DNA of 64,000 nt from Phoronis australis (lineage: Eukaryota > Animalia > Phoronida), in contig NMRA01000260.1 in NCBI GenBank assembly GCA_002633005.1, positions 397,907 to 461,906 on the forward strand. Reading direction: 5' to 3'. The position numbers were made by a program, and so were the translations under genes. Below are positions 2,547-62,133 of this stretch, piece by piece. The notes under the pieces are model-generated. The model was not told where the DNA came from, searched no databases, and was given only the letters and a program-made list of their open reading frames with translations. Every line of letters begins with the position of its first letter. Positions within the stretch are counted from its first letter, which is position 1.

Positions 2547-5500
2547 CTAGAACAGCAATAAGGAATGGCTTTAGCCACCATTCAAAGATTTAATCATCAT
2601 TATCATGCACGCACCCAGCCTAAAAATGGGGGGTTCAACTTTTTGAGAATGTGGAAAGTTTGCTTAGATTCAAGGGGTACGCTATGAATTCGCCAAATTT
2701 TGGTAGTTCCTGAATTGTTAGTGGACGTTTGTCTCGTTTTTTATACTTTTTTCAGTTTTAGTTTCTTGGAGGTGAACCTTTTTGCCTACTTTGCCGAATG
2801 GGGGGCTTGAACGAGCCCCCCGCATGGTTATCATTTATAATCATTGTCAACTTATTATAAACCTTACATTAAGGTCAAATACTGTTGACGCTTACATGAG
2901 GGGAGACATTAATTTTGTTTTGACAAAAAAATCGAAGAAGATATATGTATCTTGTGTCTGGAGTCATACTAACAGCCAACATTGGACAGAATGCCTCCCA
3001 AGCTAGTACCTCACAAATATGTCGAAGTCTACTAAGATCACACAAGGTTTCCCATTGGGCATTTGTCCACCTTATAAACTGGTATACTTACAGTACTTCT
3101 AAGTAACTCATCCTTGGAAGTAAGCTTGACATAGTTCAGTTTTCATCAAAAAATAACCCTAATCAGCATCTGATTCAGTAGAATGCTAAAGAAAACACCT
3201 ATGTTTGTGGTCTCATACACTCAATACACTCACCAGTATTTGTGGCAGACGTTGACTGTAGCAACTGTATGGTCTGTAATGGTACAATCGTCCAGTCGCT
3301 GTTGCCAGGGGCTAAATGACACAAACAGACAGAGAAATGGAGAGTTCAAAGAGTAAACAAATGATTGCTTGTTAATACAAGAGCAACGCAGAGCATTGAA
3401 ATGTGCCCACAATTGCACCGTATACGGTATCCTTCTAGGGTTGCTTATTGGTACCATAAAGTGGCCAGTAGAGGGCATATATGTAGTATGTTGTACTTTG
3501 CAAAATGGAAAGGCATGGTCATTGTCTCCTCAATAGGCTAGGGGCAAAATGTGAGTGATCTTCATAATACAAGCACATCCTATACATCAGTTGCTTAAAG
3601 CACCACAAACACATAGAATTAAAAACAAATTTACCACCATAAATTTAGTAAAGATCCTGCAAACTGTTTGGGAGATACAGCCATGGGTGCAAAAAGAAAC
3701 TGCCACTAGGAAGCGCCACAGTAATCAAAGTCATGGGAAATTCAGCGTCAACCGTCCTCTTCATAGTAAGAACATACATGCCCAATTTTCACAATCATAC
3801 TTAGAGCGGTTTGGTTGATAGAGGGGTGGACGCCAAAAAACAGACTCAAAAACAGTAAAAATGGCTACTGCGTGTCGCAAACTAGGTCGAATCCATCCGA
3901 AAATGGGAGGATAGCATCATCGCACTAATAGGTGCCTACATACCACATTTCATGAAAATCCGTTAAGGACTTTTGAAGACACAAAGGTAAGCTTAAAAAA
4001 CTAAAATTGCCACTAGGGGGCACATCGGTAATCGGATCCGTCCAAAAGTCGTCATCTTCCATTGTGAACATCATATAAATACACTTACACAATTTCATAA
4101 AGATCCTGAGAAAGGTTTAGGAGATACAGCCATAGGCGCAAAAAAAACAAAACAGCCACTAGGAGGCGCCACAGTAGTCAAAATCGTCGGAAAATCATCG
4201 TCAACCGTCCTCTACATAGTAAGCATATACATGCCAATTTTCACAATCATCCTTTGAGCGGTTTGGTTGATAGAGGGGTGGACGCACAAAAACAGACTCG
4301 AAAACACTAAAAATGGCCACTAGGTGGCGCAAACTATGTCGAATCCATCTGAAAACAGGAGGATAGCGTCATCTCACTAATACGTGCCTACATACTAAAT
4401 TTCATGAAAATCCGTTCAGGGCTTTTGAAGATACAAAGGTAAGCGTAAAAACCTAAAATTGCCACTAGGGGGCACACCGGTAGTCGGATCCGTCCAAAAG
4501 TTCGCACATGCCGTCCCATTCATGAATGGAACATATGTGCCAAATTTCATGAATGTATGTCAAAGGGTTTTGGAGATAGAGCAGCGGACGCCGGACGGAC
4601 GCCGCCCGTACGGACGGACGGACGGAGATGACGGCATAATGCGTCCACATATAAATATGTGGGCGCATAAAAATCAAGAAAACGAATACACTTTTGTTGA
4701 AGAAGGTAAAGGAAAATGCAGTTATAAGCATCACTTTCTTCTACAAGCGTTTTGTAACCATCAGACTAGAATGTTATATGTTATTACTGAAAGTGGCCTC
4801 CTGAAAAAACAATTGACATGAAGATTCAACATTCTCATCCATAGACATCCTCTTTGACAAGAAAAAATTGTTTCAATCTGATAACTTTTAAATTTTCCAC
4901 AAATGGCTTACCAGCTATGATGCCAAGGGAAGTGTTGAATGGACTTGCTGTCACTGAGTCAGAGCCAAGGGAGGGCTTTGGAGCTGCAACATGCACAGTA
5001 AGTGAACTGATAACATAAATTTCATGTTAATTTTACAAGGGGATTCTCCCAACGCAGGCTCAAACTTTAGCATTTTTTTACAATAAAGGCAAGAACTTAC
5101 AATTTTGAAGACTGTAAACCTGATGTACTGAGCTCATGCTGACACTGAACTTTTTTTAACGCTTGCATTTTCAGCACTGCCTCAGCGGTTTTCTCCCGAC
5201 ACTTGGTCCGTTTAATCCATTGTAGCATGAAGAGATGTGAAATTATGTTTGTCAAGATGGTTTAGCCGAGCCGAGTAGACAAGAAAGTCTAATTGAGACA
5301 AAGTCTTACAATTATAAATTCTAACACTTTTACAGTAGGTACTGTAAATATCTCCATCAGCATCGAAGCACAACTCAATGGGTCTTTCCAAAATGAAAAG
5401 CACACGCCCTATGGAATGCATCTACTGAGCATGAAATTGACACACTGCCAAAAAACCAATGACAAAGGGCTTTGAATAATTTTTTCACAGCACGTGCTGC

Positions 5501-8500
5501 AGCAGTTGTTTACAATAGAATTGTGAAGCTTATGCAAAATTTCAGGTACCTAGCTCAAGTAAGAAAATATTAGCAAAAGTTCAAGATCTGTTTTCTAGAA
5601 TCACCCTGTATCTCAACCTTAGCAGCGTCACAATACACAATCCTTTGAGGCTATTTTTAATGACAATTAAATCAATGCAGCTCGATATTCAAAGAGATTA
5701 TTTATTTACTGTTGATAATTTAGCAAAGAGAATGACTTTAAGAAACAAAGGTATTAGCGTGCAGGAACTCTGTGCCAACAAGTCAACTCCATTTACCTAT
5801 TTTTGAGCCAGCTCCTTGTTGAACTGTTGGCTTCTTGTACGGGTCCTCCTTGCGTAGGGTCCAGAAGGAGCCTACGAGTCCAGGGGTGCTCACACGCTCC
5901 CGCACAAAGATGTCATACAGTGACAAGTTGTGTCGAATGGAATTCTGCAACAGCAGAGATGGCAAAGCTAAACATACATGTTTAATTTCATCTTGACCGT
6001 CAACAAACATAACAAAGAAACTACACATTCTTGGACCATACACATTCTTGGACCATACACATTCTTGGATCATACACATTCTTGGATCATACACATTCTT
6101 GGACTATACACATTCTTGGACCATACACATTCTTGGATCATACACATTCTTGGACTATACACATTCTTGGACCATACACATTCTTGGACTATACACATTC
6201 TTGGACTATGCATATTCTTGGACCATACACATTCTTGGACTATACACATTCTTGGACCATACACATTCTTGGACCATACACATCTTGCTTATTGCTCATG
6301 TTCAGATCAAAGCCCACCCTGAAAATTTTTAAGTTTACATTTTCATCAAACTCCCGCACTCAGCTTGGAACCCAACCCCAACGTATACGAACAAGACTTC
6401 TCTAGAAGTGCCAGTGTCTATATGAGTGTCGTCACGCATGAATTTTAGCTCCCAAAATGTAGACAACTGACATTCCATTGGGTAACAAACATTCACTTTG
6501 AATGGCAACGTGTCACATTCAAGCATGAAAATACCCACTTATTCTGAAGAAGACATGAAGTGGTTCTTCTGTCTCATGAGCAATTATAATACAATTATGC
6601 TTGTATGCCAAAAATGATGATGACATTTGGAAGACCAAATTGATTGTTCAGGTAAACGCCTTCCCTGACCTCTCAAAAATTTCATGTTTTACTAGCCACA
6701 CTTGACTTACCACCAACCCTTGTGGTATTTCTGATCTAACCCAGACAGGATTGATGTTAACACCACGGTTCACTTAGGACTAGGGTGAAAATATTATCAG
6801 ATGCAGTGACTGAGTGACATCAGACTGACCTTCCAGCCCTGCTTGGCTGTGAATCTGTAATAGGGGAACTTGCCCTCAATCCAGCCATAGATCTCGCGCA
6901 GTGTCATTCGCTTGTCTGGTTTGCTGTTGATGGCCATCTGGATCATAGACATGTAGGAAAATGGCGGACGTTTGTCCCGGCCACACTCACGACTCACCTG
7001 GAACCATTGAATAGAAGTTAGACATTCCGACGTATTATTCTCAAATTGCAATGGGACTGCATGCCACAGGCTGACAAACGTCAGTGTAGACAGGGCCCTT
7101 GATGCCTTGATTTAAAAATCCCACAGAATTCCCCTTATCAGCCCAAAAATTCCTCTCTAATGATTAAAAAATTCCCCTCAAGGTCAGGTGTGATTTCCCC
7201 CCAACCAAAATATTCCCCTCCTTGAAGGTACAGGCACTTTCACTTTTCCCCTGAGGTGAGTGAGGGCCCTGAGGGATGAATGTTTGGAGCATTAAACAAA
7301 ATGTCAATGATAGACTTCGCTCTATGACAAAAAAGGAAGTAACTTTGCTTTGTTGTTGGCACCATCTGTACATTACAGCTGTGCACAAAATAACTTTTGG
7401 TAAAATTTAGAGCTCTTGCAGTAAAGATTTCAAAATTAGGAATTGTTTTTGTCTAAAACTGAAGATTTTTGTACTGCACATAGAATTGTATAAAAAGAAA
7501 GTTAATCAATTACCAAGTGTTCAAAATGGGTTAGAATCTTTTTTTGTTTCAATCAGTCAGGACTGCTGTAACATTGGATTTTAGCAGCTTCAACTTTAAT
7601 AAATAAACATTGCAAGGTTAGGAATATTAAGATGTGTGAAATGAAAGGAAACAATATGATTCACAAATCTGCTATTACCGGTACTAAATTGTTGTTGCCA
7701 TGAATAAAATTTACTTATCATGTGATTAAGAATGAAATGGTCTAAATTTTCTGACCTGAAAGTCAGCAGTAAGCAGATTCGATACAAGAATACAAAGTGG
7801 GAGATGAAGTGATTGTCCTCCTTTATCCACGATTCAGGATTAGTGACATATGACAGAAATACGCAATGCAAAAGAATATCAAGAAGTGCTGTGTATTTTG
7901 TAGGACACTACACAAACACAATTAAATTGTTTTCTAGGCTTCAGTTTAATATATCAAGCTATATGCTGAAGCTTCCAAGTGAGAAACCGTACAGTAATAC
8001 TTTACTGCAAAGTTTCACCACTTTACGACACAACATTGCAAACAAGTGAAATTTCACTTTTTCCTCAAAGTAAAACCAAACAATGCTTTATCATTTTTAA
8101 TTTCTATGAACCATAACTACTGTCAGACAATGTTTTGGGGAACTGTTGACATTCACAACAATGCTAAAAGCATTTGAAAAATGAAAAAAAAATCAATTTT
8201 GGTAATTGCTTTATCCAAAATGGGAAGTTACACAGTAACAGAAACTCACCTTCTCAATCTGCTGCTCACTGACGAAGACCTTGTGATTGATCTGGTTGTT
8301 GTTGCGGACCAGTGTATCGCCCGACATTGTGCCCAGCCATTGGATGTTTGTGAGTGATGTGTTCAGCGAGTCATTAGAGTTCAGCTGGTCACCTACAAAG
8401 GGGGAAGTATCAGAGGAACAGGTAAGAAAGGAGGGACATTGTCAGACAATTGTCCACTCTTGGCTATTTACGTCACAGGACCAAAGTATTTGGGAAAGTG

Positions 8501-9419
8501 TCCACCCAATGTAAATGCAAGCACAGTGTTGTTCCATGATTGAAAAGTTCCAAACCACATTTTGGAAATCTTGAACCAAAAGCTCTGAGCCATGTTTAAA
8601 ATGATAAAGCTATGTTTGAAAAGTTTTGCTTTACATGACAACTGATTGCATGGTGGTTTTTGCATTTAATTTTGTAGTAAAAATGAGTGACAAGGGAACA
8701 TATGTTACTGTAGTTGTTTCTGTGAATTAGACTATAAAAACATAATATGTAATTTGAGCCATGTTTGGACTTTTGCCCAAGACAACCTTCAGAAAGCAAG
8801 AATTTTTAACCATTTTAATGTCGGTGTTAATCTAATCAATTCTGTCTATGAAAAATATAATTTTCATCATCACCAAGTAAGTCATTGTTAGAGATGACTG
8901 CAAGAAGTCCATACCTGAACAGGATGCTTGAAACAACCCCTCTGTTGACAGAATGGTATATCTCTTGTTCACACTACTTGGTGGCAGCACTACATTAAAG
9001 CCTCGAGTCTGTTGTTGAAGGTGATTGTTTACGGCGCTGACAACACCCTCTTTGGACTGATTGTAAGGTGGCGTTGGTTGATTGAGCAGGTGTGAGATCC
9101 GATTTGTATTTGCATGTGGACGGTACTGTAATGTGACTGGTGCTTGACTCTGGTGATCAGAGGTTGTGACTGCATTCATCAGGCCATCTTGAGAAGCCAA
9201 CGAACCCGCATAGCCAGTCTGGTCAGGAATTTTGGTTATTTCAATGACAGTCTCCTTCTTGAGGCTATCGACTGGCAGTGGACGGTTTGACAAGAGATGG
9301 TTGAAAGCAATACTAGTTCTTTTAAATTCGGTTTTACCTTCCATAGATTGTATGTTAATAGGAACTAAATGTTTCTCATCTTCAGTAATATAGCCAACAA
9401 GATGGCCAGCTCCATTCAT
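1672..9419 (-). CDS. FOXM1: Forkhead box protein M1 ortholog, spliced CDS: complement(join(9419..8915, 8392..8250, 6997..6830, 5944..5797, 4983..4912, 3311..3234, 2546..1672)), 1989 nt, 662 aa
   Basis: Forkhead domain RPPFSYMSMIQMAINS...GWK|NSIRHNLSLYDIFVRE...SFWTL spans two exons. The motif LNTSLTNIQWLGTMSGD (exon 8392-8250) resembles human FOXM1 SLSNIQWLRKMSSD, and the C-terminus NTSFSKLFADFPLDGVDE...ENISW resembles human NDSLSKILLDISFPGLDE...DNINW. All introns are GT-AG with matching phases (1,0,0,1,1,1) and the joined frame is open to TGA at 1674-1672. The two small internal exons (72 and 78 nt) are less certain. Confidence 0.92.
3234..3311 (-). CDS. FOXM1: FOXM1 internal exon (78 nt, phase 1-1), APGNSDWTIVPLQTIQLLQSTSATNT
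   Basis: catttag acceptor, G|GTGAGT donor, open frame in the phase-compatible register. Confidence 0.7.
3377..4670 (-). mobile_element. HINE/DINE-1-like non-autonomous Helentron derivative, copy A (FOXM1 intron)
   Basis: Reverse complement of copy B; 5' subTIR hairpin, (CCGT)n microsatellite, internal ~450-bp tandem units, 3' subTIR and stem-loop. Confidence 0.75.
4912..4983 (-). CDS. FOXM1: FOXM1 internal exon (72 nt, phase 1-1), APKPSLGSDSVTASPFNTSLGIIA
   Basis: gttgcag acceptor, G|GTAAGC donor, open frame. Confidence 0.7.
5797..5944 (-). CDS. FOXM1: FOXM1 exon: C-terminal half of forkhead domain (NSIRHNLSL...FWTL)
   Basis: Recognition helix H3 motif; ttgcag acceptor, G|GTAAAT donor. Confidence 0.93.
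6022..6283. repeat. 17-bp minisatellite (~15 copies) in the intron splitting the forkhead domain
   Basis: Unit CACATTCTTGGA(C/T)(C/T)ATA. Confidence 0.95.
6830..6997 (-). CDS. FOXM1: FOXM1 exon: N-terminal half of forkhead domain (RPPFSY...GWK)
   Basis: Forkhead H1/H2 motif; ttccag acceptor, AAG|GTCAGT donor; 56 codons. Confidence 0.92.
8250..8392 (-). CDS. FOXM1: FOXM1 exon containing the SLTNIQWL motif
   Basis: Not in the ORF track; read by hand. tttgtag acceptor, AAG|GTGAGT donor. Confidence 0.88.
8915..9419 (-). CDS. FOXM1: FOXM1 first coding exon (MNGAGH...)
   Basis: Exon acceptor at 9453/9452; in-frame TAG at 9440-9438 upstream of ATG 9419; donor CAG|GTATGG at 8915/8914; phase 1 matches the next exon. 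Confidence 0.75.
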
Positions 9420-10575
9420 TCTACTGGCAGTCAATGTCTAAACCATTCCATTCTACAAAATTAAAATGACAGATCAAAGTTTAACTCTTAATGATGAACA
9501 GTACTTCTATCACTTTTAATCTCAGTAGCATTGGTCACATTTTAGAAGCTTCTTAATTAGCCACAATAAACTTGCAACTAGTATCCATCAAAAATATAAT
9601 TCTTTGAACTTACCACAATAAACCTGCTCTTTACTCAAACTCAAGATGATTCATGGGTTTTGCGTAGAACTGACATTTTATATAACTTGAGATAACGCTC
9701 GATAAGTTGAGATTTCATAGCACGTCATTTTATACACCGAGCATGGTTTCAACCCCTACCAAACTTTCAGGTCATCATTTCTCATGTGAGTTAACAAACG
9801 AGTTGAGACCAATTTTACTTCAGAAAGTGGTTTAAATCAAGTTAGTTTCTTGGGCACTGAAAAGAAAGTTTGTAGCCACTTTAAACACCTTTTTACATGC
9901 ACCAAACAAAAAACAAACTGTTATTGCTTAATGTCATCATTTTCTGGAATACCTGATTGTAACAGCTATTCTAGCTAAGTGAGTCTTACTAGATGGATTT
10001 TTTTTCTCAAAGTGTGTTAGCCTTATGTCATCTACGTCAGTAGCTCACATTTAGTGTTATGTAAGACCCAAGCAAGATGTCCAGATTTGCCTGACTTCCC
10101 TAAAATCAGAGCTTCAATATTAACTGTGGTTAATCACTCACTTAAGCTTTTGTGTTCCGATCAGCTTTGGAGTTATTAGCTGGAAGGATTTTTATATGCA
10201 GGCAATTAGCCTTAAAAAGACTAATTGCCTCCACACTCCACAGGTATAGATCAGACTTCATCTACACATGAAAGGTATATTAACCATATTAACCATAGTA
10301 ACTTGACTTTGATATCCAGAGTTTAAAGTAAAATTTGCAGAAAATGTTCGGCCGCACTGGATTAAGATGAGACACTGACTAACTGCTTGTACAGCCTGTA
10401 CAACACAACTAGGCGATTGATAAATTGCCTAGAGCAGACGGATGGGTAACCTCCCCATTACCTTCGGTAAGTTTCCATTTGACCTGAAACACATTAACTG
10501 TAAATGAGTTAAGTCTTCAATTTCCTTGATGGATTGAAGGACTACTGTTGATTGCTTACTGCAATATTTAGCCAA

Positions 10576-11176
10576 TGTTGTGAAAGTGTTTCCGGTGAAT
10601 CATATATATGAGCCTCTGTTAGCCACATGCTAACGGGCAATTGCCTATTAGCTGAATGGTTAGCACGCTCGCCGGTTAAATCGGGGTCATTGGTTCGATT
10701 CCCCTATTACGACATTTGGCGTAGTTAGCAAACGGATGATATACCGTTGAAGGACTTCATAGAGCATGGGGCCTGAGAAAGAACGCTTGGTGGTAGGGTA
10801 CAGGCATAATGTAAGGTACATGTGCAGGCATGATGTAAGGTGCATGCACAGGCATAATGTAAGGTGCATGTACAGACAGGGTGTAAGGTATGTGTACAGG
10901 CATAATGTAAGGTACGTGCAGGCATGGTGTAAGGTGCATGTACAAGCATAATGTAAGGTACGTGTACAGGCACAATGTATACACCTGGCTGATGGCGCGC
11001 TTGTTGATAGGAAAGGGGGGAATGTTGTGGACGTGCTTCCGGTGAATCATTATGAGCCTCTGTTAGCCACTCGCTAACGGGCAATTGCCTATTAGCTGAA
11101 TGGTTAGCACGCCCCACGGTTAAATCGGGGTCGCTGGTTCGATTCCCGAGATCGGGCAATCTCGGCTATTACGACA
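10576..11176 (+). mobile_element. TRIM (non-autonomous mini LTR retrotransposon) with a tRNA-like sequence in each LTR (Helenus-type)
   Basis: LTRs 10576-10714 and 11023-11176 (TGTTGT...ACGACA); PBS TGGCGTAGTTAGCA from 10717; PPT AGGAAAGGGGGGAA at 11009-11022; A-box TAGCTGAATGG and B-box GGTTCGATTCC in both LTRs; no clear TSD. Confidence 0.82.
10798..10980 (+). repeat. 26-bp tandem repeat (~7 units) inside the TRIM
   Basis: Unit GTACAGGCATAATGTAAGGTACATGT with variants. Confidence 0.9.
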
Positions 11177-11572
11177 CCTCCTTGACTTTGTTTGAGCTGG
11201 ATCATTCTAACTCAACTGCATCAAATGTTGGCAATGGTCGGTTATTCCCTGATTTAGAGAACTATTTTCATCCACAGAATAAAGGGCACGTTATTCAGTG
11301 ATTGCCTGGTTCTCTAAATTACTGGGTTGCCTTGCATCAGTTCAGAACTTCTATGGCATGCCTTCTAAATTCTGCTTTCTGCCTTGTATTGCCATGTCTA
11401 ATGCCGCTTCACGCTTGCCTTGGATTTTGACAGATTCTTGATTGACAGTTTGCTACTTCAGTAGACACTGATTAATAATAAACAGAAGATTGAGAGGTAA
11501 CGCAAATCAAATATTTTACATTTTCCCAAAACGTAAAGTCCTGCAATATTCATTAACAATCACAACACTTAC

Positions 11573-11806
11573 CACTCCGCACACCAATCCTGTTCAAAAT
11601 TCGAACCATTAATATCGACAACCAATCAAATCATAGAAGCATTTCACGTGATGACGAAGGCATTTCTTAAGTCAATGTTGATTTGTCATTTACCAAATGT
11701 TTGACCAATGAAATTGACTTTAACAAACTTTTAGAAAGCTTATTTACTTCCGGTGAAAATTAAATGGCTGTGTTTATCGGATTCCTGTGTTCAGTATTAC
11801 TGTAAA
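11573..11806. promoter_or_regulatory. Candidate FOXM1/RHNO1 bidirectional promoter with two short non-coding first exons
   Basis: Divergent consensus donors: G|GTAAGT on the minus strand (11573/11572) and A|GTAAGT on the plus strand (11806/11807). Between them: CCAAT x3 (11584, 11622, 11705), CHR-like TTTGAA (minus, 11593-11598) and TTCGAA (11600-11605), E-box CACGTG (11645-11650), ETS ACTTCCGGT (11746-11754), YY1-like AAATGGC (11762-11768). TSSs not directly observed. Confidence 0.7.
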
Positions 11807-13813
11807 GTAAGTTTAAAAGTTGATTAAACGTAATTGTCCTTCGTCTAATTATTAGACACCGCGTATTTTAGCTAACCCTGGAAGTGCAGAAGCACGTTTT
11901 CAAATCCGAAAAATTTCGCCGTATCGTGTGACGTGAATTTTAAGACAGTGTCACTGTCAGTGACCACACCGACACTCTCTGACACTGACATCTCTACTCT
12001 AGCTGGCCCAGAACTGCAATAGAGAACGTCTCTACCGCAAGCTAGCTTTTTGGTGAATTATGCCTCAAGCGGATTGAAAAATCAAAGCCACGTTGGCACT
12101 GGTGGGATATAGTGGTCCCTGATTTAGAGAACCAGGCACTCACTGAATAACGGGCCCGTTATCCAGTGTATGAAACTGGTTCTGGTCAATTCCGCGAAAA
12201 GGTCAACCTCGAGACAAAAAATTAAAACTGTGGCTACACTAACGTTTCTGGTCTCACCTGAAATCCCATTATCTCTAGTTTCAGGACCCGTATTTGACTG
12301 TCCTATAACTTTCAATTTTTTGCCTAAATAGACCCATTTTGGGGGGTCACTTGACCCTAAAAAATTAGCTCGATTTTCATGTGTGTTGCTAATTGTTGTC
12401 AAAAAAGCTAAGTATGGGTATTTCACTATACTATAAAATTTGTGCAATCTCATGAACCCCAAACTTTATAAAAGATAATATTTCAACTTTGGCACATCAT
12501 CGAGCTCTTGGTGCCAAAGGTCAACTCCTGGATATCATGGTGCCATATGTCCATCACAAAAAGTGTTAAAAAGTTTAGTTACGTTAAAAGTTTTGAATCA
12601 AAATTAAAATAATTTCAGATTCTCTTTTAAATTGTTACTCAATATTATCGACCAAAATTTTAGATCCCAGGGATTATTTGTTAAGCCAGAAATTGTGTGA
12701 CAGACGTATAGCAAATTTGTACGTCCGTCACACCCATGAAATTACAATTTTCAGCAAATAAAAGTAACCTTAGGTCATATTTTTTACTTTCTAAACTTAC
12801 AAATAAAATGTATCTCACACCTAAGAACTTTAAAACGATAAAATATTACAAAGGCAGCTTTAAAATCACGTGAAGAAGTTGCTACAGATTTAAACTAAAT
12901 GCATTGGATTTTTCAATTTCAAAAGTATTTGCAGAAAGTTATAGTTTTCAATGTCATCTAGATATTCATAATAGAATTCAACTTATTAAAATCACACAAT
13001 TGGCCCTCATTATAAAATGTAAATAAAACAAAATGGTAATTTAATGAACTTATTGTTAATCTGTTAGTACACCGTGTTTGTAAAGAAATGCTTAGCTTTT
13101 GGGAAATTCAAGATGCAAAAATATTCATACAAAAGAATTCCTAAGGTGCTCTAGAGTATTATAAATAACAAGAGACCTAAAGGAATACATGTCAGTTTGC
13201 TATTGCGCTGGAATCAACATGTTACTTCTCTGACCTGCTATGCTGTGTTTTGTGTTGAAGAAGCCGATACTGGGCATTTTTAAGTGGTAGGAACCTGTCA
13301 CCTACTTTATTGGGCATTTTTGTCACACTCTCACTGACCGTAGTCATCCTTGTTGTGTTTTTCAGTGTGTTGGGATATTGGGTGGCTTGTGTGAAATGAT
13401 TCAAAGCAAATGACTACATTGTTTCATCTTACGTCTTTTTGATCCCTCAATCTTTTTAAGAATTAGACTATTTTTTTTCTGCTTAGCTTCGAGGAGATTA
13501 AACTGGTGTTTAGAAACAATTGAGGAAATTGTTGGAGACCACGGGAAGAACAGATGCCACTGGAATAAGAATAAATACCTGCTCTAATATTCTTTGAAAC
13601 TCGAAAAAAATGCCATGGTGGATGGAGACATTCTTAATAATACTTGCACACACTGTGATGTGACATTATTTCAAGCAGCCTCTCCTTAACTTTAAAAAAA
13701 AGGCATGAGTTAAAGAGCTGGGTGAAAACCTAATCATGTTAATCACTAAATAGAAACCAACATCTGATAAGTTAGTTTACATATTCCTAAATCATAACCC
13801 CAAATGCAATTAA

Positions 13814-14857
13814 TTATGCGCCCACATATTTATATGTGGACGCATTATGCCGTCATCTCCGTCCGGGCGGCGTCCGGCGTCCGCTGCTCTATCTCCAAAA
13901 CCCTTTGACATACGTTCATGAAATTTGGCACATATGTTCCATTCATGAATGGGACGGCATGTGCGAACTTTCGGACGGATCCGACTACCGGTGTGTCCCC
14001 TAGTGGCAATTTTATTTTTTTACGCTTACCTTTGTATCTTGAAAAGTCCTGAACGGATTTTCATGAAATTTGGTATGTAGGCACCTATTAGTGCGATGAC
14101 GCTATTCTCCCGTTTTCGGATGGATTCGACCTAGTTTGCGACACCCAGTGGCCATTTTTACTGTTTTTGAGTCTGTTTTTGGCGTCCACCCCTCTATCAA
14201 CCAAACCGCTATAAGTATGATTGTGAAAATTGGCATGTATGTTTTTACTATGAAGAGGACGATTGACGCTGAATTTCCTATGACTTTGATTACTGTGGCG
14301 CCTCCTAGTAGCAGTTTTTTTTTGCGCCCGTGGCTGTATCTCCCAAACCGTTTGCAGGATCTTTACTAAATTTAGCAAGTGTTTTTATGTGATGTTGACA
14401 ACGGACGATGATGACTTTAGGATGATTCTGACTACCGGTATGCCTCTAGTGGCAATTTTAGTATTTTACATTGACCTCTGTATTTTCATAGGTCTTCAGG
14501 TGTATACTTTGTGTTTCTTCGTGACTATGAAGGAAAAGTTCCAAGTAGAATTTTGTTTCTGGCATTCTAATGCTGTGCTAATCTCGTATGTTGGTAAATT
14601 TGTTTTTAATTCTATGTTTCTGTGGTGCTTTAAGCAACTGATGTATAGGATGTGCTTGTATTATGAAGATCACTCACATTTTGCCCCTAGCCTATTGAGG
14701 AGACAATGACCTTCCCTTTCCATTTTGCAAAGTACAACATACTACATGTCATATATGCCCTCTACTGGCCACTTTATGGTACCAATAAACAACCCTAGAA
14801 GGATACCGTATACGGTGCAATTGTGGGCGCATTTCAACGCTCTGCGTTGCTCTTGTT
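13814..14857 (+). mobile_element. HINE/DINE-1-like non-autonomous Helentron derivative, copy B (RHNO1 intron 1)
   Basis: 5' TTATGCGCCCACA-TATTTATA-TGTGGACGCAT hairpin; CCGT repeats; 3' subTIR TGTGGGCGCAT (14822-14832) followed by the stem-loop CAACGC-TCT-GCGTTG and a TT end. Confidence 0.78.
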
Positions 14858-17111: not shown

Positions 17112-20100
17112 ATGCCTCCAAGACGTCGAAAAAAATCTAATCAGCATCGCAAGCGCCCATTAGCATTCGCTGAGAGCCCTGTCAACATCTACCATGATAT
17201 TCCATCTCCCATTGCTTCGGCTAAGAACCCACCAACAGCAGACGTTGTTCCATTTGATGACACAAAGCCATGGGTAAATATTTGTCGGAAATGTTCTTAC
17301 AAATAATTTTTCTTAAATATGACAATGCTGTAGTTATTGTAGATGCAAAACGATGTTTTGATTTATAGTGTTTTGATGTTTGTTGTAGCTCAAAAAATTA
17401 GTTTTGGGTATTGGATTTAAAACTCATAACAGCTTTGTGGATGCGTGTCATATTCAAGCGTTCCTCATGCTTTCTATATTGTTAAAATGACATACATTCT
17501 AGGGAGACTAAATGTAAAATATAAAGTTGCTTTCAAGCAAGTAGTAGGGTATGCCAAGTCTTTACTGTGAAAATATAAGAGCAGATATTGTGTGGTACTT
17601 GTGATAAAATCTGACCTATTTCAGTCAAAAATAACACGAAAACTTATCTTTTCAGTCTTTAAAAGCATCAAACACTGCTGTGGATGCCCACTTATCAAAG
17701 CATTAGGTGTTTGATGGCAGCCATGGTGTTGAACAAAATCGATATTCCTGTTACCCTGCCGACCATTGTGTATTTTTGTAATCAAAGCACTGTCCACACT
17801 GAAGCAATTGTAACTTTCAAAACCAATTTAGAGGTTGTTACTGTTTCTTGGTTACCGGGTATGGCTTTCTGTGAGGGTGGTTTAGCAAAAGGTTTTAACT
17901 GTTTAACTTTGAGTGAACACAGCAATTGCAGAAGTCAATCTGTAGGTGGCGTTGCTGTCAAATCTCTTTCGAAACAATGGCACACCGAGGTATTACCTCG
18001 TGTGAATCAGAACACGATAGCACTGACAACTAGCATCTAAAAACCACAAATTAGGGTTACAACAGGTCTGACTGTCTGCGTGACCTTTAATAATTAGATA
18101 ACAGTTGTAACTGTAGAAAGAGTTATAACCAAATTTAGTCTGAATACAGCTTAAGAAGTCATTTTATGCTCAGTTTAAGCTCATTAGTTGTCTCAGGTGA
18201 CGCTGTTATTTGTGATTAGCAATACACTGTATCTACTATTAATTTGGCCCAATAAACTCAGTTCCCTTTTTCATAAACATGGCTCCCCGACCACCAAAGT
18301 TGGTTCCGGCCTAAAAACATGACTGAGGCACACAGAAACAACTTCTGGCTCAGAAACATGGCTCACTAAGTACCCATGAGTCTGCACCGTGTTTGTGAGT
18401 GGGAAGGTTTTTAGGATGGGTAAGCCGTCTTTTTTCAATCTGGTCACGAGTTTGGGTACTCGTAGCATGCATTGTGATGAACTAAATATTTGCCAGTGCC
18501 TGGTCGCATGAAGAAATCCCAAATAGGGAATCAACTAGGTCCCCAAAATCTACTGTGTATTTGTGGGCTTTGAAAACATCGATTGTCCTTTCTTACGCCG
18601 TTTCAGTCTCATTACTAAGTCAATTTTTGGCTTTGATACAAATCGAGAGTGAACTCTACATTGAATTCTGAATACTATTGAAAATAAGTAGGGATATTTT
18701 CATGCAAGTAAGACTAGTTCTATTATTAGAAAAAGCCATTCGTCAAAGAGGAACTCATAATAAAGAAAAAAAGCCATTCGTCAAAGAGGAACTCATAATA
18801 AAGAAAAAAAAGCCATTCGTCAAAGAGGAACTCATAATAAAAAAAGCCATTCGTCAAAGAGGAACTCATAACAAAGAAAAAATTACATGAAGTTGTTACA
18901 TCTGTAAGTAATGAATAAAACAAATCTGCAAAAGATGTAGGGAACTTAGTCGAGTCCCTATTTGGGACTGTTTCACGCAACCGGGCACAGGTCACCCAGT
19001 TTTCCACCGAACATATCTTTGATAATACAGCAATCTTGTTGAGAAATCTTCCGTATTATTATAGGCTTACCAATCCTAGAGAGAATGTGTGTAACTTGAT
19101 ATATGTAGGACCTTGCAGACATGTCTGTACTGGGTAAATTATCTACAAAACTTTAACCCAGTAAAAGTATATATTTTCTGTAAGTGGAAAGGCTGTGCGA
19201 TTTGATTTTTGGTGTTTTAACTGTTAATTGGGTCTTGTGATCGTGTCTTTTGAGTAAAATTTACCAAAAAAAACAAAAGTACATTGATAGCAAAACAAAA
19301 GTTATCAATATAAATGTTCCAAGATGAAATCTCAAAAACTCTGTTACAGTTTTCTAAATTACTATCTCATTTTGAGCTTATGCAACTTTTGATTTTTTCT
19401 TTAAAATCATAAATTTGAAAGTCATATTATTGATAGCCTCTTATCTGAAGTTGTAGCATTTGAAAAGAATTCCTAACATATTCTTGGGAACAGTACAAAA
19501 GGCTCAGTACATGTAAGTTATATATAGATCCTATCAACCATGTCTGAGATATGTTTCAGAGTTAGCCAGATTTGAAAATTTTCTGGGTTCCTGCATATCC
19601 TTAAATATTTTGTTATTATACTTTCTGGCTTAGGCATTGAACACAATAGTTTGATATTTTGCGGATTTGCATGGCTGTTGTCTTAGAATATTCACCAACT
19701 TTCATCCCATTTGCTCTCAGATTTCGCCGCAATTTCAACAGCAATATCCAGGTGACGTAGTGCGTCGTAGAATCACCAGAAGTCGCTCTAGAACTGCACG
19801 ACAAGCCAATGTCAACTACACGTCGTTGAGCATCAGTGAGACAGCAGTACAGAAAAATGCAAAACAAAAATACAGTGCGTTAAAGTTTCTTGGAGAGACG
19901 ACCGAGATTGATTCACCGATAATTGAAATATCATATTATGGTCAGGAGAATGAAAATGTGAACAGCGCTGATCTTGAAGATGGTATTTTGACTCGAGAAA
20001 AAGACAATAATGATAAAGATATCAATAAAAAGTTTCATGCATCCATGGACAATACTCGGACATCTAGTGCTGATCGTGTACAACTAGCTACGCAGGAGAA

Positions 20101-20530
20101 AAGTGGTTTGTGCTGCAACAAACGGACCAGGTTAATTGATGGTTCTGGTGTGACAGATTGTAAAATTGACTGTACTCGAGAAATTACATCCTGTGTGATG
20201 ACGACTTGTCATAAGGACCACCCGTTGAGCTGTGACCAGCTGGTAAACTCACCATTAAGTCATTTAAGTGAAAATGATCAGAATAGACGAACTCGTGCTA
20301 AGCGCTTGTTCAGTAGCCAGCGTTTTGTCAATAGTGCCCAGTGCCGTAGTTCTCCAAGACTTGTGGCAGAGCGTCAATTTTTCAACTTATTACAACAAAC
20401 TCCTGTTGCCCAGTTCCGTGATTTTAAGGTTTTAGTGGAAGATACTCCCGACTCTGAAAAAGGATTGTCTGTGCTGGAGAGGAGACATTTGCGTGTGTCA
20501 AAGAGAGCTGGGTGGGCACTGAAGATATGA
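17112..20530 (+). CDS. RHNO1: RAD9-HUS1-RAD1-interacting nuclear orphan protein 1 (RHINO)-like, join(17112..17273,19721..20530), 323 aa
   Basis: N-terminus MPPRRRKK...RPLAFAESP (human MPPRKKRR...APLLFHQQP); the splice creates PW|ISPQF (human SWVSPDF); KYSALKF at 19868-19888 (KYxxL-type 9-1-1-binding motif); C-terminal VLVEDTPDSEKGLSVLERR (human VLVKDTPEDKYGIKVTWRRR). Phase-0 GT-AG intron; head-to-head with FOXM1. Confidence 0.85.
18330..19000 (+). mobile_element. Dispersed repeat; inverted diverged copy at ~23350-23710
   Basis: TAGGGAACTTAGTCGAGTCCCTATTTGGGACTGTTTCAC matches the reverse complement of GTGAAACAGTCCCAAATAAGGACTCAACTAAGTTCCCTA; AAGTCAATTTTTGGCTTTGATACAAATC matches likewise. Boundaries are approximate. 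Confidence 0.6.
18730..18882. repeat. ~38-bp tandem repeat (4 copies)
   Basis: AAAAGCCATTCGTCAAAGAGGAACTCATAATAAAG with a variable A-tract. Confidence 0.9.
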
Positions 20531-28959: not shown

Positions 28960-30015
28960 GGTTTTTTGCGCCCATGGATGTATCTCTAAACACTATGCAG
29001 GTTCTTTACAAAATTTAACAAGTATATTAAATTTTATATGAAGTTGACAATGGACAACGACGACTTTCAGGCAGATCTGATTACAAAGAGTGCCTAACTA
29101 AGTCCCAATTTTATTTTTTACGTTTACCTTTTGTATCTTCAAAGGTCCTCAACGGATTTTCATAAAATTTGGAATGTGGGCATCTGTTGGTGAGATAACA
29201 CTATCCTCCCGTTTTCTGATGAATTAGAAGTATTTTGCACCACCTAGTGGCCATTTTTGCTGTTTTCAAGTCTGTTTTGTGGCGCCCGCCTCTCTATCAA
29301 CCAAACCATTCTAAAGATCAAAAACCGGAAGATCGCCGCACAAATAAAAAAGTTCATATTCAATTCAACGTTTCGTCTTTTCATTAGGCATCATCAGGAT
29401 CATATTTACAACAATTTAGGACAAGTGCCAACATACAGCTCTATGGATATTGCCTGAGCTGTATGTTGGCACTTGTTGTCCTAAATTGTTGTAAATATGA
29501 TCCTGATGATGTCTTATGAAAAGACGAAATGTTGAATTGAACATGAACTTTTTTATTTGTGCGGCGATCGTCTGGTTTTTGATCTTATTGTGGCCAAAAA
29601 TTTAATTAACATCATTCTAAAGATGATTATGAAAACAGTTGATGATGACGACTTCGACTACTGTGGCACCTCCTAGTGGCAGTTTTGTTTTGTTCCCATA
29701 GCTATAACTCTTAAACCCGCTGCAGTGTCTTTATTAAATTTAGTTAGTGTATTTATATGAAGTTAACAACGGACGACGATGGCAATTTCATTTTTCTGTT
29801 TTCCTTTGTTTCTCCGAAGTTCCTCAACAGATTTTTATGAAATTTGGTAAATAGCTTTCTATTAAAGAAACGATGGCATGTTCCCGTTTTTGGATGGATT
29901 CGACATATTTTGCATCATCTTGTCGCCATTTTTACGATACAAACAAACAACCCTAGAAGCACATCGTTCACGGTGCATTCATAGGCGCATTTCAATGCTC
30001 TACATTGCTCTTGTT
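28960..30015 (+). mobile_element. Diverged, 5'-truncated copy C of the same HINE family, with a nested foldback
   Basis: Shares CCTAGTGGC and CTCTATCAACCAAACC blocks and the 3' end AACCCTAGAAG...GGCGCATTTCAA...GCTCTTGTT with copy B. Confidence 0.7.
29314..29586. repeat. Long foldback palindrome (~128-bp arms, 14-nt loop)
   Basis: AAGATCAAAAACC...ACATACAGCTC / loop 29442-29455 / GAGCTGTATGT...GGTTTTTGATCTT. Confidence 0.9.
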
Positions 30016-30407
30016 TTAGAAAGTGGGCGGGGTTTCCTCAGAAACCTCATTACAACATTGCGGCATGTGAGTTCCCTCAGTGCATGAATCAGCTGTCACT
30101 CACTAGTGTACGGCAACCATTTTAGGTGATGATCCACCATCAAACATTAAAATTAAACTAAAAAATTGATATTTAATTCAATTATGCTTGAAAATATTTA
30201 CTGTGCGACATGAATTTTATTTGTTTTTAAGTTTGAACTGAATTAAGTTTTATTACAGTCAATCTGTTTTTTGAAGTTTTTAACTAACATGAAGTGGAAA
30301 GAATACCTTTAAATCAAAGAATCATTGTTGGATATTTTGCTGTTGATAAGCGTGTTATATTCTTGAGAAAGTTACTTGACTGTGCAGCAACACAGTCCAG
30401 TTATTCA

Positions 30408-33700: not shown

Positions 33701-36700
33701 GTTTTGATACGCTTCATGAAATAACAGTGTCACACTTGGCTGAGGTTGCTGCACTGAATGTAGTTAACAGTTAAAAACTTGTTTGTAGCTTGGACATTCA
33801 TTACACGTTGAAGTGAACATAACTTTACAGTTGAATTGTCCACATGGATGATTCAACTATAAAATCATATTCAACCAAACATTAATAATCACCCTGCTTC
33901 TTGTTTTCTATGTACAATTTATACGCTGTTCTTGTGGCTTTTAAATTGAGTTGCTAATTGATCTTGTGATATTTTCCAGTTGTTGACTGTGGAGATCCTG
34001 GTCAAGTAGCAAACGCAGCAAGGAGTGGTTCAGACTTTACAGAATCCAATTCTGTAACCTACAGTTGCAACTCAGGATATGCACATAGTTCAGGAACTTT
34101 AACGCGACAATGTCAATCATCTGGCTCATGGTCTGGATCACAACCATCTTGTGGTTTGTGGAATTTTTTTTGTGTGTCAGTTTCAAACATTTTGGTGCCA
34201 AATGTCTTTTAAAATTATGGTAATTATCCAGATTTAACTTTGCTGCAAATTGTGGAAACTTCACCATTTGTTGTTTTGTGACATGGAGGCTTCAGAATGT
34301 AGTATCCTAGGTGACGTCTACACATACACACTATTGTAGTAATAGACTAAAATTTTCTTGATTTTTATTTTGCTGAAGAAATTTGAAAGAAATGGAATTT
34401 CGTCTATCAGCCATATTGTGTGCTATGTAAAGAATTTCTGTACTCTGCTGATAGAGAAACAAAATTAGCTTGTCCAAAATTTTCTGAATGTTTCGTTTTT
34501 CAGTTCGTAACTGTGGAGATCCGGGTAATGTTGCCAATGCAGCTAAGAGTGGCACAGACTACACAGAGTCAAATTCTGTCACCTACACATGTAACTCTGG
34601 ATATGTACATAGTGGAGGAACCTTGTCTAGACAGTGTCAGTCATCGGGCTCGTGGTCAGGATCGCCACCTACCTGTGGTCAGTGGAACTTAATTTTTGAT
34701 GACTCTTGAAATTAGTCACTATTTTCAGATTTGTGGTGTGAAAAATAGAAGTTAGATTACGTGGACTGCATGACTGCCTGCCTTTAACTTGCAGACCATT
34801 CTGAAAACAAGATCACCTGTAATGCTATTCACCAGTTTTGAGTATATAGTACACGTTAGGTTTTTGCTGCATCTTTAAATAGCTTGGCACGAAAAGGAAT
34901 AATGAGAAACTAATGGTAAAACACTCAACGTTTTTGAATTTTATGTTTTCTAGTTTGCAACTGTGGAAATTCTGGGAACATAACCTCATGTTAGCTATGG
35001 AATAGAACTACTATAACTTGATGCTAAACATGAAAAATACTTGTCATCCTTATTGTTTAGTAAATTGATGAGATTTCACTGTTTGTATAGTGCAGATGGA
35101 TTTCAGATTTTAACTCTTATGTTGGCATGCCAGCATATGATGGAGCATTTTAAACATGTTATGAAAATTATTTTTCTTTTACATAAATGTTAATTGAAAA
35201 TGACAAGATTTCTAAGCAGGGTTTAGTATCAACAAAAATTTTTGTGATGTTTTTAGTTGCTTTGATTTTTGCAGCTCGCAATTGTGGAGATCCAGGCAAT
35301 GTGGCCAATGCTGCTAAGAGTGGCACTGACTATACAGAGTCAAAGTTTGTCACATATACATGTAACTCTGGATATGTACACAGTGGAGGAACCTTGTCAA
35401 GACAATGTCAGTCTTCGGGGTCATGGTCAGGATCGCCACCTACCTGTGGTTAGTAGTATTATGTAGTGCGCAGTTACTGAAATGTTTTAGCTGTGTTGGG
35501 ATTGCTAGATGGGTTTTTGCTGATAATGAGATGAAGTGATGGCCAGAGCTGACCTCAGTTTTACTGCAAGTAGTCACACCAATCAATGTTATTATGCTCC
35601 CAAATATACATTTCTAGCTGCATGCATACTGATGTGATCTCTGTAGTCACCTAAACCCTTGGTAGTTCTTCATGGCTTGGCAGATGTGCTCATGAAGCTG
35701 ATGTCAGATTGTAACTCCTTTCGGACAGTTCTTAGATGGCTACTGCTGTGCTTCCTTAAGTCGCACTTTGTCTCTCTGTCTAAGTAACTACTAAGTAACT
35801 CACTGGATGAAATGTGGCAGAGGAATTTGTATCAATGACTAGACAATGCTTCATACATATGAATCTTCAAGATGAGGTGACTTTTGTTGTTGCCCCCTTA
35901 GTGGCAATATTATGTTGGTGTCCTTGTTATGTCATCTGCCTCTATCTGGCAAACGATTTGAGGGATTGTCATAGAGAATATCTTCCTATTGACAAGAGCA
36001 TAGATGACAATTTTACGAAGGACCCATATACCCTCTATTAACCGTTTTAAGGTTTGTTGTTCCTTCTACTCAGTTCAGTAAAGGTTTGTCATGATATATC
36101 TGAGAGATATGTTTTTGTGATGTAAATATTTTTGACATTGATTTTCCCATCACGTGAGACCACTGCTGCACTTCTTTGCCTCATTGAAGTGATTACATTT
36201 CATGGAAAGTCTTATGTTCTGGCCATTATTGTTCTTTTACTTGGTTGGTTGAAAATGACAAAATTTTGTATAAGGAATTAGTAACAACAAAACTGTTTGG
36301 GATTTTTACCCTTATTCTTTTAGTTTTGCCCTATTGTTTTTTAACTTGATCAGCACCTTTGAAATCAGTAAATAAATGTATTTTCATTTTCCAGCTCGCA
36401 ATTGTGGAGATCCAGGCAATGTGGCCAATGCTGCTAAGAGTGGCACTGACTATACAGAGTCAAAGTCTGTCACATATACATGTAACTCTGGATATGTACA
36501 CAGTGGAGGAACCTTGTCAAGACAATGTCAGTCTTCGGGGTCATGGTCAGGATCGCCACCTACCTGTGGTTAGTAGTATTATGTAGTGCACAGTTACTGA
36601 AATGTTTTAGCTGTGTTGGGATTGCTAGATGGGTTTTTGCTGATAATGAGATGAAGTGATGGCCAGAGCTGACCTCAGTTTTACTGCAAGTAGTCACACC

Positions 36701-61548: not shown

Positions 61549-62133
61549 AAGGCAAAAGTTGTCACTCTGTGCATGGCAATGAACAGCTCAGTTGTGAATA
61601 TGGCACACCAAAGATGATCCGTCTGTACCGTCAACACCTGATAATTACTTCCGCCTTGCCCCTGGTTTGCGGCCACACAATGATAAGTTACCTTGAGAAG
61701 ATGGAGTAAGTTGTCACAAGTAGGGCATGTTGCTCTAGTTTAAATTGTGTCCAGACAGTCCCCAAACCTATTGACAACTAGTTCCAGGAGTAACTTAATC
61801 TAAGGTCAGGCTATGTGTGAACGGCACTTAAGGATCCTCTCAAACCTTGTTTACAAAATTGGCCGTTTTTACAATATTTCACTTATGCCTAACAAAATAC
61901 ATTATATTCATTCTCGAGGAACTTCAAATATGAAATATATATGGTGTAGCGAGAAAAAAGATTTAGCAGAACCACCTTGGAACCGCGCAACTGCATGGAA
62001 ATTTGTTTATTTCTTATCTGAGGTCAAAGGTTACAGGGCTGTCACTCAAATGAAATCTCCCGCCAGGCATAGGGCAGCTTCGTATGTTCTCTCAGTCCAT
62101 TTATTCATAATTTTAGTCAGCGAGGTGTACATN

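What the first reader, a model, noticed from the sequence alone, without database searches (positions are those of the whole stretch)
10576..11176. Miniature LTR retrotransposon whose LTRs carry a tRNA-derived Pol III promoter
Seen: two 139/154-bp TG...CA LTRs, a tRNA-Ser-type PBS, a PPT and a non-coding 26-bp minisatellite core. Each LTR contains TAGCTGAATGGTTAGCACG..CGGTTAA..GGTTCGATTCC, i.e. A box, a GTT (Asn-like) loop and B box; in the 3' LTR the ends TTGCCTAT / ATCGGGCAA can pair like an acceptor stem. Established: plant Cassandra TRIMs carry 5S-derived LTRs, and tRNA-bearing TRIMs have, as I recall, been described as Helenus, a little-studied group. Inference: a SINE/LTR hybrid transcribed by Pol III and mobilised in trans. 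It sits ~400 bp from the FOXM1 promoter, antisense in intron 1, and could act as a TFIIIC-bound insulator.
Basis: partly seen in the sequence, partly recalled or inferred. Interest (0 to 1): 0.72.

Follow-up and report, generated by a model that had tools for sequence, protein, structure and literature searches.

The report
Miniature retrotransposon with tRNA-like fold-back ends
A 601-base gene-less jumping element sits in the first intron of this animal's FOXM1 gene and carries tRNA-type promoter boxes in both end repeats, which makes it a new family of a kind described in 2024 (Helenus); it is likely transcribed like a tRNA gene, and a self-pairing stretch beside the promoter is predicted to tie the two ends of its RNA together.

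Summary
The element is real. It has TG…CA LTRs of 139 and 154 bp, a PBS, a PPT, A and B boxes in both LTRs, and no TSD. It is not a local duplication: LTR contig depth is about 1,000 times the flanks, and other copies show LTR–PBS and PPT–LTR junctions with a different interior. Spliced reads place it antisense in FOXM1 intron 1, 424 bp from the transcript 5' ends. It fits Helenus (Kojima 2024) as a new family, in a host that is probably a lophotrochozoan. The scan noted this kind before on other DNA (42 findings), but not this sequence. Corrections: the minisatellite period is 24, no cloverleaf is predicted, Pol III transcription is not shown and the insulator idea has no support. New here: a 24-base arm antisense to the A box and D arm, centred on a palindrome (0 of 1,000 shuffles). 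It is predicted to pair the RNA's ends. By eye a similar palindrome abuts the A box in 54 of 76 non-insect animal Helenus LTRs, which the paper's text does not mention.

The parts
10576..10714 (+). 5' LTR, 139 bp, TG...CA; lacks an 18-bp hairpin segment present in the 3' LTR
10617..10665 (+). Fold-back in the 5' LTR: upstream arm, central 10-bp palindrome (10636-10645), A box and D-arm side
   Evidence: (I3)
10649..10702 (+). Pol III type-2 promoter boxes of the 5' LTR: A box 10649-10659, B box 10692-10702
10717..10730 (+). Primer-binding site, serine-tRNA type: 9 of 14 identical to the complement of the Aplysia tRNA-Ser-TGA end in Kojima Fig. S2C; other copies 11 of 14
   Evidence: compared by eye
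10715..11022 (+). Non-coding interior, 308 bp
10798..10979 (+). Minisatellite, period 24 bp, 7.7 copies; marks this minor sub-lineage
11009..11022 (+). Polypurine tract, 14 purines abutting the 3' LTR
11023..11176 (+). 3' LTR, 154 bp, TG...CA
11061..11109 (+). Fold-back in the 3' LTR: arm 11061-11084 antisense to 11085-11109, centred on a 10-bp palindrome (11080-11089); -24.8 kcal/mol
11086..11158 (+). 73-nt tRNA-like unit: A box 11093-11103, B box 11136-11146; no cloverleaf predicted
11146..11165 (+). 7-bp hairpin over the tRNA-like 3' end; not beyond chance in context (134 of 1,000 shuffles)
9453..11572 (-). Host FOXM1 intron 1 (GT-AG, 2,120 bp), which holds the element
11573..11600 (-). Host FOXM1 non-coding exon 1; RNA 5' ends pile up at 11600

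Best explanation
This is one older copy of an abundant, gene-less miniature LTR retrotransposon (a Helenus-type TRIM) whose LTRs carry tRNA-type A and B boxes; it is likely transcribed by RNA polymerase III from the 5' LTR, likely primed by a host serine tRNA and copied and inserted by the proteins of a Gypsy element, and the antisense arm beside the A box is predicted to pair the two ends of its RNA. Shown: the anatomy, high abundance, other copies with the same layout, the intron position and the complementarity. Inferred: the polymerase, the primer, the partner and the role of the fold-back. An RNA starting near 10635-10642 lacks the upstream arm at its 5' end and gains it only in the 3' LTR. 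There the arm can pair with the 5' tRNA-like head, bringing the two R regions together for strand transfer and hiding the head from tRNA-processing enzymes, or it can fold locally as a 3'-end signal. This copy is most likely a passenger in FOXM1.
For: Anatomy beyond chance. LTR summed contig depth is 7,777-9,294 against 10-11 in flanks (X1) and 50,603-65,380 against 41-49 (X2); interior bins are 8-40 times the flanks. Reads from other copies run from the LTR end into a PBS (40 and 39 reads) and from a different interior into the PPT (12, 17 and 7 reads). One 416-letter contig in X8 reads LTR end, 234-base interior, PPT, LTR, and its end appears to overlap its start by 30 letters, a closed 386-base unit (overlap inferred from 16 visible letters and the lengths). 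Helenus is designated as TRIMs with tRNA-derived LTR sequence, and animal families match only Gypsy at the PBS. LTR and interior sizes resemble the serine-primed mytilid families (LTR 141-156, interior 226-268). Fold-back: z -3.8 and -3.2; arm duplex 0 and 2 of 1,000 shuffles; end-to-end pairing preferred in all 4 modelled transcripts, 13-16 expected pairs.
Against: No TSD. Chance of 2 or more mismatches in 4 bases at the LTR divergence is 0.03, whereas animal Helenus make 4-bp TSDs. No tRNA profile match, so tRNA origin rests on the boxes, length and ends. RNA does not show a sense Pol III transcript: LTR reads are mostly antisense in 5 of 6 bins, and sense reads on this interior are 0 in the two fully interior bins of 3 runs (library selection unspecified). 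This copy has no T4 run before 11265. No partner was found; the window's Gypsy shares only the first 7 LTR bases and uses another serine PBS and a 5-bp TSD. Variants in the fold-back keep pairing in 8 of 10 cases against 27 of 44 for any transition, which is not a clear excess. The arms tested were chosen after seeing the fold. Depth is not a copy number, and X1 and X2 are one sample that may be the window's source.
Confidence: 0.82

Rival explanations
1. It is an ordinary Pol II-driven or passively transcribed TRIM; the A and B boxes are relics of an old SINE insertion and no longer drive its transcription.
For: LTR RNA is on both strands and mostly antisense, as expected of passengers in host transcripts. 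No terminator lies in this copy. Kojima states that no Helenus promoter has been validated.
Against: Both boxes match consensus in both LTRs while the sequence between them varies among copies: none of the 40 variant rows shown (of 236) nor of the 38 falls in an A or B box, whereas 7 rows fall in 11113-11126. A 152-154-bp LTR leaves little room for another promoter.
Confidence: 0.1
2. The fold-back works mainly as a conditional Pol III terminator. In the main sub-lineage a T4 run lies 10 bases after the hairpin; it would be read through in the 5' LTR, where the arm is absent from the RNA, and used in the 3' LTR. This refines the best explanation and does not replace it.
For: T at 11122/10678 makes up 64% (X1) and 72% (X2) of contig depth and 91 of 113 and 83 of 96 RNA reads at 11122. 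A hairpin 0 or 7 bases before T4 enhanced yeast Pol III release in vitro (PMC9278858, passages).
Against: An 18-base spacer did not work in that study and 10 was not tested. About a third of contig depth, and both LTRs of this copy, lack the T4. LTR-11_DR has the palindrome and no T4 in its LTR (by eye). At equilibrium the arm pairs with the 5' end rather than locally.
Confidence: 0.2
3. Two tRNA-derived SINE heads were duplicated locally around a minisatellite.
For: No TSD; only one copy in the window.
Against: TG...CA ends, PBS and PPT in place; junction reads and a full unit from other copies; no poly(A) or simple-repeat tail.
Confidence: 0.02
4. The family spreads mainly as tandem arrays or as a circular RNA, like Cassandra arrays or retrozymes.
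For: The X8 contig appears to be a closed unit, unbranched at both LTR ends, depth 48. Arrays are known for Cassandra, biv-TRIM and LTR-11_DR.
Against: Any LTR-interior-LTR molecule gives the same cycle in an assembly graph. X8 is only guessed to be RNA. Rfam finds no ribozyme at E<=10. This copy is single.
Confidence: 0.08
5. This copy has been recruited as a TFIIIC-bound insulator or regulator of the FOXM1 promoter.
For: Two consensus B boxes lie about 450 and 900 bp from the 5' ends at 11600, and a plus-strand transcript starts near 11700. No empty-site joint is listed in 3 RNA samples.
Against: With on the order of a thousand LTR copies some will lie near promoters. Nothing here measures binding or effect. 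Intron depth is only 0-6 reads, so the absence of an empty site has little power.
Confidence: 0.05

Closest known systems
Helenus (TRIMp3), Kojima 2024, PMC10886601. Read: text parts 1-4 and 6 of 6; supplement parts 1, 5, 6, 7, 10, 11 of 11 and two motif searches.
   Same: Under 1 kb, non-coding, two LTRs, tRNA 3'-end PBS, PPT, A box (TRGCY, YGG) and B box (GGTTC) in each LTR, no working tRNA. Sizes are close to the serine-primed mytilid families. By eye a near-palindrome abuts the A box in 54 of 76 non-hymenopteran animal LTRs; four anchor motifs give 33 hits, and all 30 displayed are in such LTRs.
   Different: No listed family has this PBS start or A-box stretch (0 hits; line breaks can hide hits; parts 2-4, 8 and 9 were seen only through motif searches). 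This copy has no TSD and has a minisatellite interior. The host is not Lingula; its phylum was not determined. The text has 0 occurrences of 'hairpin' or 'palindrom'.
Cassandra TRIM of plants (PMC7215508, passages; the 2008 paper was not held)
   Same: Small-RNA-derived Pol III promoter inside the LTR; predicted super-hairpin in which the two LTRs pair.
   Different: 5S-derived, with terminators and mapped transcripts; here tRNA-type boxes, no conserved terminator, no transcript mapped.
biv-TRIM of bivalves (PMC6934838, passages)
   Same: Animal TRIM with solo repeats and arrays.
   Different: No canonical PBS and hairpins in the interior; here a canonical PBS and the fold-back in the LTR.
Retrozymes (cited in PMC10886601; original not read)
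   Same: Non-autonomous LTR element; a closed LTR-plus-interior unit was assembled here.
   Different: No ribozyme detected.

Membership tests
Helenus | TRIM: two LTRs, short, no coding capacity | tested here: met
   601 bp, TG...CA LTRs; the only frames of 100 aa or more are minisatellite read-throughs on the minus strand
Helenus | PBS complementary to a tRNA 3' end directly after the 5' LTR | tested here: met
   TGG start 2 bases after the LTR; 9 of 14 (this copy) and 11 of 14 (other copies) identical to the complement of a tRNA-Ser end in Fig. S2C. Host tRNA set not available.
Helenus | PPT before the 3' LTR | tested here: met
   14 purines, 11009-11022
Helenus | tRNA-type A box (TRGCY, YGG) and B box (GGTTC) in the LTR | tested here: met
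   Both LTRs; 1 of 20,000 shuffles; no other site in the window
Helenus | Detectable similarity to tRNA or SINE2 beyond the boxes (Censor and tRNAscan-SE in the paper) | tested here: inconclusive
Helenus | Repeated family with full-length copies | tested here: met
   Depth, junction reads and the 386-base unit
Helenus (animal) | 4-bp TSD at this copy. A reported property, not part of the designation; listed as n.d. for 2 animal families. | tested here: not met
   2 of 4 match; Table S1
Helenus (animal) | 4-bp TSD across the family's copies | not testable with these tools
   No genome held; read layers give only mixed flanks
TRIMp3 | Transcription by RNA polymerase III | not testable with these tools
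   Ordinary RNA-seq shows mostly antisense LTR reads; unvalidated for Helenus generally
Cassandra / Ajax | 5S rRNA-derived sequence in the LTR | tested here: not met
   No 5S match
Retrozyme | Self-cleaving ribozyme in the LTR | tested here: not met
   No Rfam ribozyme at E<=10; undescribed folds are not excluded
tRNA-derived SINE | Head at the 5' end, tail of poly(A) or simple repeat, no LTR signals | tested here: not met
   Boxes are internal to TG...CA repeats flanking PBS and PPT

The most novel reading that the evidence does not exclude
Most non-insect animal Helenus, from coelacanth, carps, bivalves and ribbon worms to this host, share an undescribed module: an antisense copy of the tRNA 5' third placed in U3 around a self-complementary palindrome whose centre varies but stays symmetric. 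It would mark one ancient lineage rather than many separate SINE captures, and would be the device that lets a Pol III transcript treat its two identical LTRs differently, by end-to-end pairing, dimer formation or 3'-only termination.
Probability: 0.3. Interest if true: 0.62.

Novelty: new member of a known kind. Interest (0 to 1): 0.38.

Why it matters
As a class it is already described, so the element alone adds one abundant family and possibly a new host group. The open question for tRNA-promoter TRIMs is how a Pol III transcript passes the first LTR, ends in the second and escapes tRNA processing. The fold-back gives a concrete answer that can be tested by mutation and by covariation in published consensus sequences. 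It also bears on whether animal Helenus arose once or many times. High-copy A/B-box repeats of this sort can be miscalled as tRNA genes or SINEs.

Tried and rejected
No genome is held, so copy number, solo LTRs and TSDs could not be counted. Two exact-pattern scans of metagenome contigs gave 0 loci. No RNA holder was listed among indexed runs. ARAGORN and three Rfam scans found no tRNA, 5S RNA or ribozyme. The idea that all of U3 is an antisense tRNA copy was rejected: outer U3 duplexes were reached by 258, 316 and 45 of 1,000 shuffles. The 3' hairpin is not beyond chance (134 of 1,000). Selection on the fold-back from read variants was inconclusive (8 of 10 against 27 of 44; only the variants the tool displayed were used). 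A chimera of the major and minor sub-lineages is unlikely, because both LTRs share letters that most copies lack; recombination within the sub-lineage could still explain the missing TSD. The window's Gypsy was considered as partner and not supported. Host placement: two of three homologue searches were empty, one gave Lingula FOXM1, and 10 of the 14 profile hits were looked up and carried no name. The Atlas gave no answer. Literature searches for Helenus or TRIMp3 follow-ups found the 2024 paper and passing mentions; one mention was read, two were seen only as listings.

Full report
Observation. The element runs from 10576 to 11176. Its LTRs are 139 and 154 bp, begin with TG and end with CA, and differ by 10 substitutions in 136 aligned sites plus indels of 3 and 18 bp. 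A PBS begins two bases after the 5' LTR and 14 purines precede the 3' LTR. The interior is 308 bp and holds a minisatellite of period 24, 7.7 copies. A tRNA-type A box and B box occur in both LTRs and nowhere else on either strand of the window; the pair arose in 1 of 20,000 shuffled LTRs, and the PBS and PPT placement in 1 of 20,000 shuffled interiors. No TSD is present.

How tRNA-like it is. The boxes sit in a 73-base unit whose ends can be paired by eye with one bulge. The unit alone folds no better than shuffles (z -0.4 and +1.3), the acceptor pairing has 0.0 expected pairs, and ARAGORN and Rfam report no tRNA. It is a promoter-like relic, not a tRNA gene, and an Asn identity cannot be assigned.

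Other copies. No genome is held, so I laid public runs on the region. In two DNA runs of one sample, summed contig depth over the LTR is 7,777-9,294 against about 10 in the flanks, and 50,603-65,380 against 41-49; the interior reaches 8 to 40 times the flanks. The tool warns that this is not a copy number, so I take it as about three orders of magnitude. Reads from other copies continue from the LTR end into a PBS (40 and 39 reads) and reach the PPT from a different interior (12, 17 and 7 reads). One 416-letter contig of run X8 passes through LTR end, a 234-base interior, PPT and LTR. Its lengths and 16 visible letters indicate that its end overlaps its start by 30, a closed 386-base unit. So the layout is repeated elsewhere, and the window copy belongs to a minor sub-lineage with its own interior. 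Both of its LTRs share letters that most copies lack, and each has private changes, as expected of one older insertion.

Host and position. The neighbouring gene is FOXM1: human FOXM1 gives the three best solved-structure hits and a Lingula protein aligns to five of its exons. That protein is the only named relative (71% over half the forkhead domain, 36% over the last exon; one search shows one closer, unnamed). The host is therefore probably a lophotrochozoan and not Lingula; I could not place it further. RNA reads show a GT-AG joint from 11573 to 9452 (7 and 2 reads) and 5' ends at 11600. The element is antisense in intron 1, 424 bp from that point. No empty-site joint was listed, but intron depth is 0-6 reads.

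RNA. Calibrated on the FOXM1 exons, LTR reads are mostly antisense to the element in 5 of 6 bins, and this copy's interior has no sense reads in the two fully interior bins of three runs. That fits passenger transcription in host RNAs. It neither shows nor excludes a short Pol III product, since library selection is unspecified.

The fold-back. The strongest structure in the LTR is a 49-base inverted repeat: an arm in U3 is antisense to the tRNA-like 5' third through the A box and D arm, around a 10-bp palindrome. The region scores z -3.8 and the 5' LTR -3.2; the arm duplex was reached by 0 and 2 of 1,000 shuffles, while outer U3 and the 3' hairpin were not beyond chance (regions chosen after seeing the fold). 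In four modelled transcripts starting at 10635 or 10642 the arm pairs with the 5' head, 13-16 expected pairs, rather than locally. Read variants keep pairing in 8 of 10 cases against 27 of 44 for any transition, which is inconclusive. By eye, 54 of the 76 non-hymenopteran animal LTRs in Kojima's Data S1 have a near-palindrome directly before the A box, usually with a similar upstream arm, in coelacanth, ray-finned fishes, bivalves and ribbon worms; 22 lack it, including all three Lingula families. Many of the 54 are close relatives and are not independent. Four anchor motifs give 33 hits, and the 30 displayed are all in these LTRs. The paper's text has no 'hairpin' or 'palindrom', and searches listed no paper devoted to it. 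Cassandra has a precedent in its predicted LTR-to-LTR super-hairpin.

Mechanism. Most likely Pol III starts 7-14 bases before the A box of the 5' LTR and reads through PBS, interior and PPT into the 3' LTR (inferred). A serine tRNA primes at the PBS; other copies match the complement of a tRNA-Ser end in Fig. S2C at 11 of 14 positions. A Gypsy element would supply the proteins, as proposed for animal Helenus. The U3 arm exists only at the RNA's 3' end, so it can distinguish the two LTRs. It may join the ends for strand transfer and mask the head from tRNA processing, or help terminate at the T4 run that about two thirds of contig depth carries 10 bases downstream. The window copy lacks that run, so termination there is not general.

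Comparison. It meets Kojima's designation of Helenus, a TRIM with tRNA-like LTR sequence, on structure, PBS, PPT, boxes and repetition. Similarity to tRNA beyond the boxes is inconclusive, the 4-bp TSD is absent at this copy and untestable for the family, and Pol III use is unvalidated for the whole group. No listed family shares its PBS start or A-box stretch. The scan has 42 earlier notes with these words in at least 13 genomes, none on this sequence or near this place, and none holding the fold-back words.

Verdict. A new family of a known kind, real and abundant, with one undescribed and testable feature. Interest 0.38.

Noticed in passing
window 11573-11800 and 19655-20530: FOXM1 is head-to-head with a plus-strand transcript starting near 11700. 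An ORF at 19655-20530 matches Pfam RHINO weakly (E 0.11, below cut-off) and carries motifs I recall from RHNO1. If it is RHNO1, the human FOXM1/RHNO1 pair, described as conserved in vertebrates (PMC8104967, passages), extends to an invertebrate. A homologue search was empty and the exons between were not linked.
   Followed up: partly
window 11584-11710: Three CCAAT boxes (11584, 11622, 11705) and a CHR-like hexamer on the minus strand (11593-11598) lie at the shared promoter; the cell-cycle meaning of these motifs is recalled.
   Followed up: no
window 57002-61548 (-) and 62046-64000: A Gypsy-type element with a 1,352-residue frame (Gag, protease, RT, RNase H, integrase), 168-bp LTRs 98% identical, a 5-bp TSD and a tRNA-Ser-GCT-type PBS, with a partial second copy beside it.
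   Followed up: partly
window 11258-11319 and 12122-12183: A high-copy MITE-like repeat brackets the FOXM1 promoter in inverted orientation (87% over 62 bp; contig depth 160-400 times the flanks).
   Followed up: no
window 30288-53224: A kringle and PAN domain gene with exons repeated in 1,120-bp units at 35267-37755 and a 3.1-kb duplication (46006-49062, 50189-53185) that includes LINE fragments with RNase H.
   Followed up: no
window 3377-4670, 13814-14856, 28962-30018; 6022-6287: A dispersed repeat family with a 452-bp tandem unit and inverted copies, and a 17-bp minisatellite inside a FOXM1 intron.
   Followed up: no
PMC10886601 Data S1, parts 5-7: By eye the animal Helenus LTRs fall into two groups: those with the palindrome before the A box, often without a T run after the B box, and those without it, nearly always with a T run just after the tRNA-like end.
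   Followed up: partly
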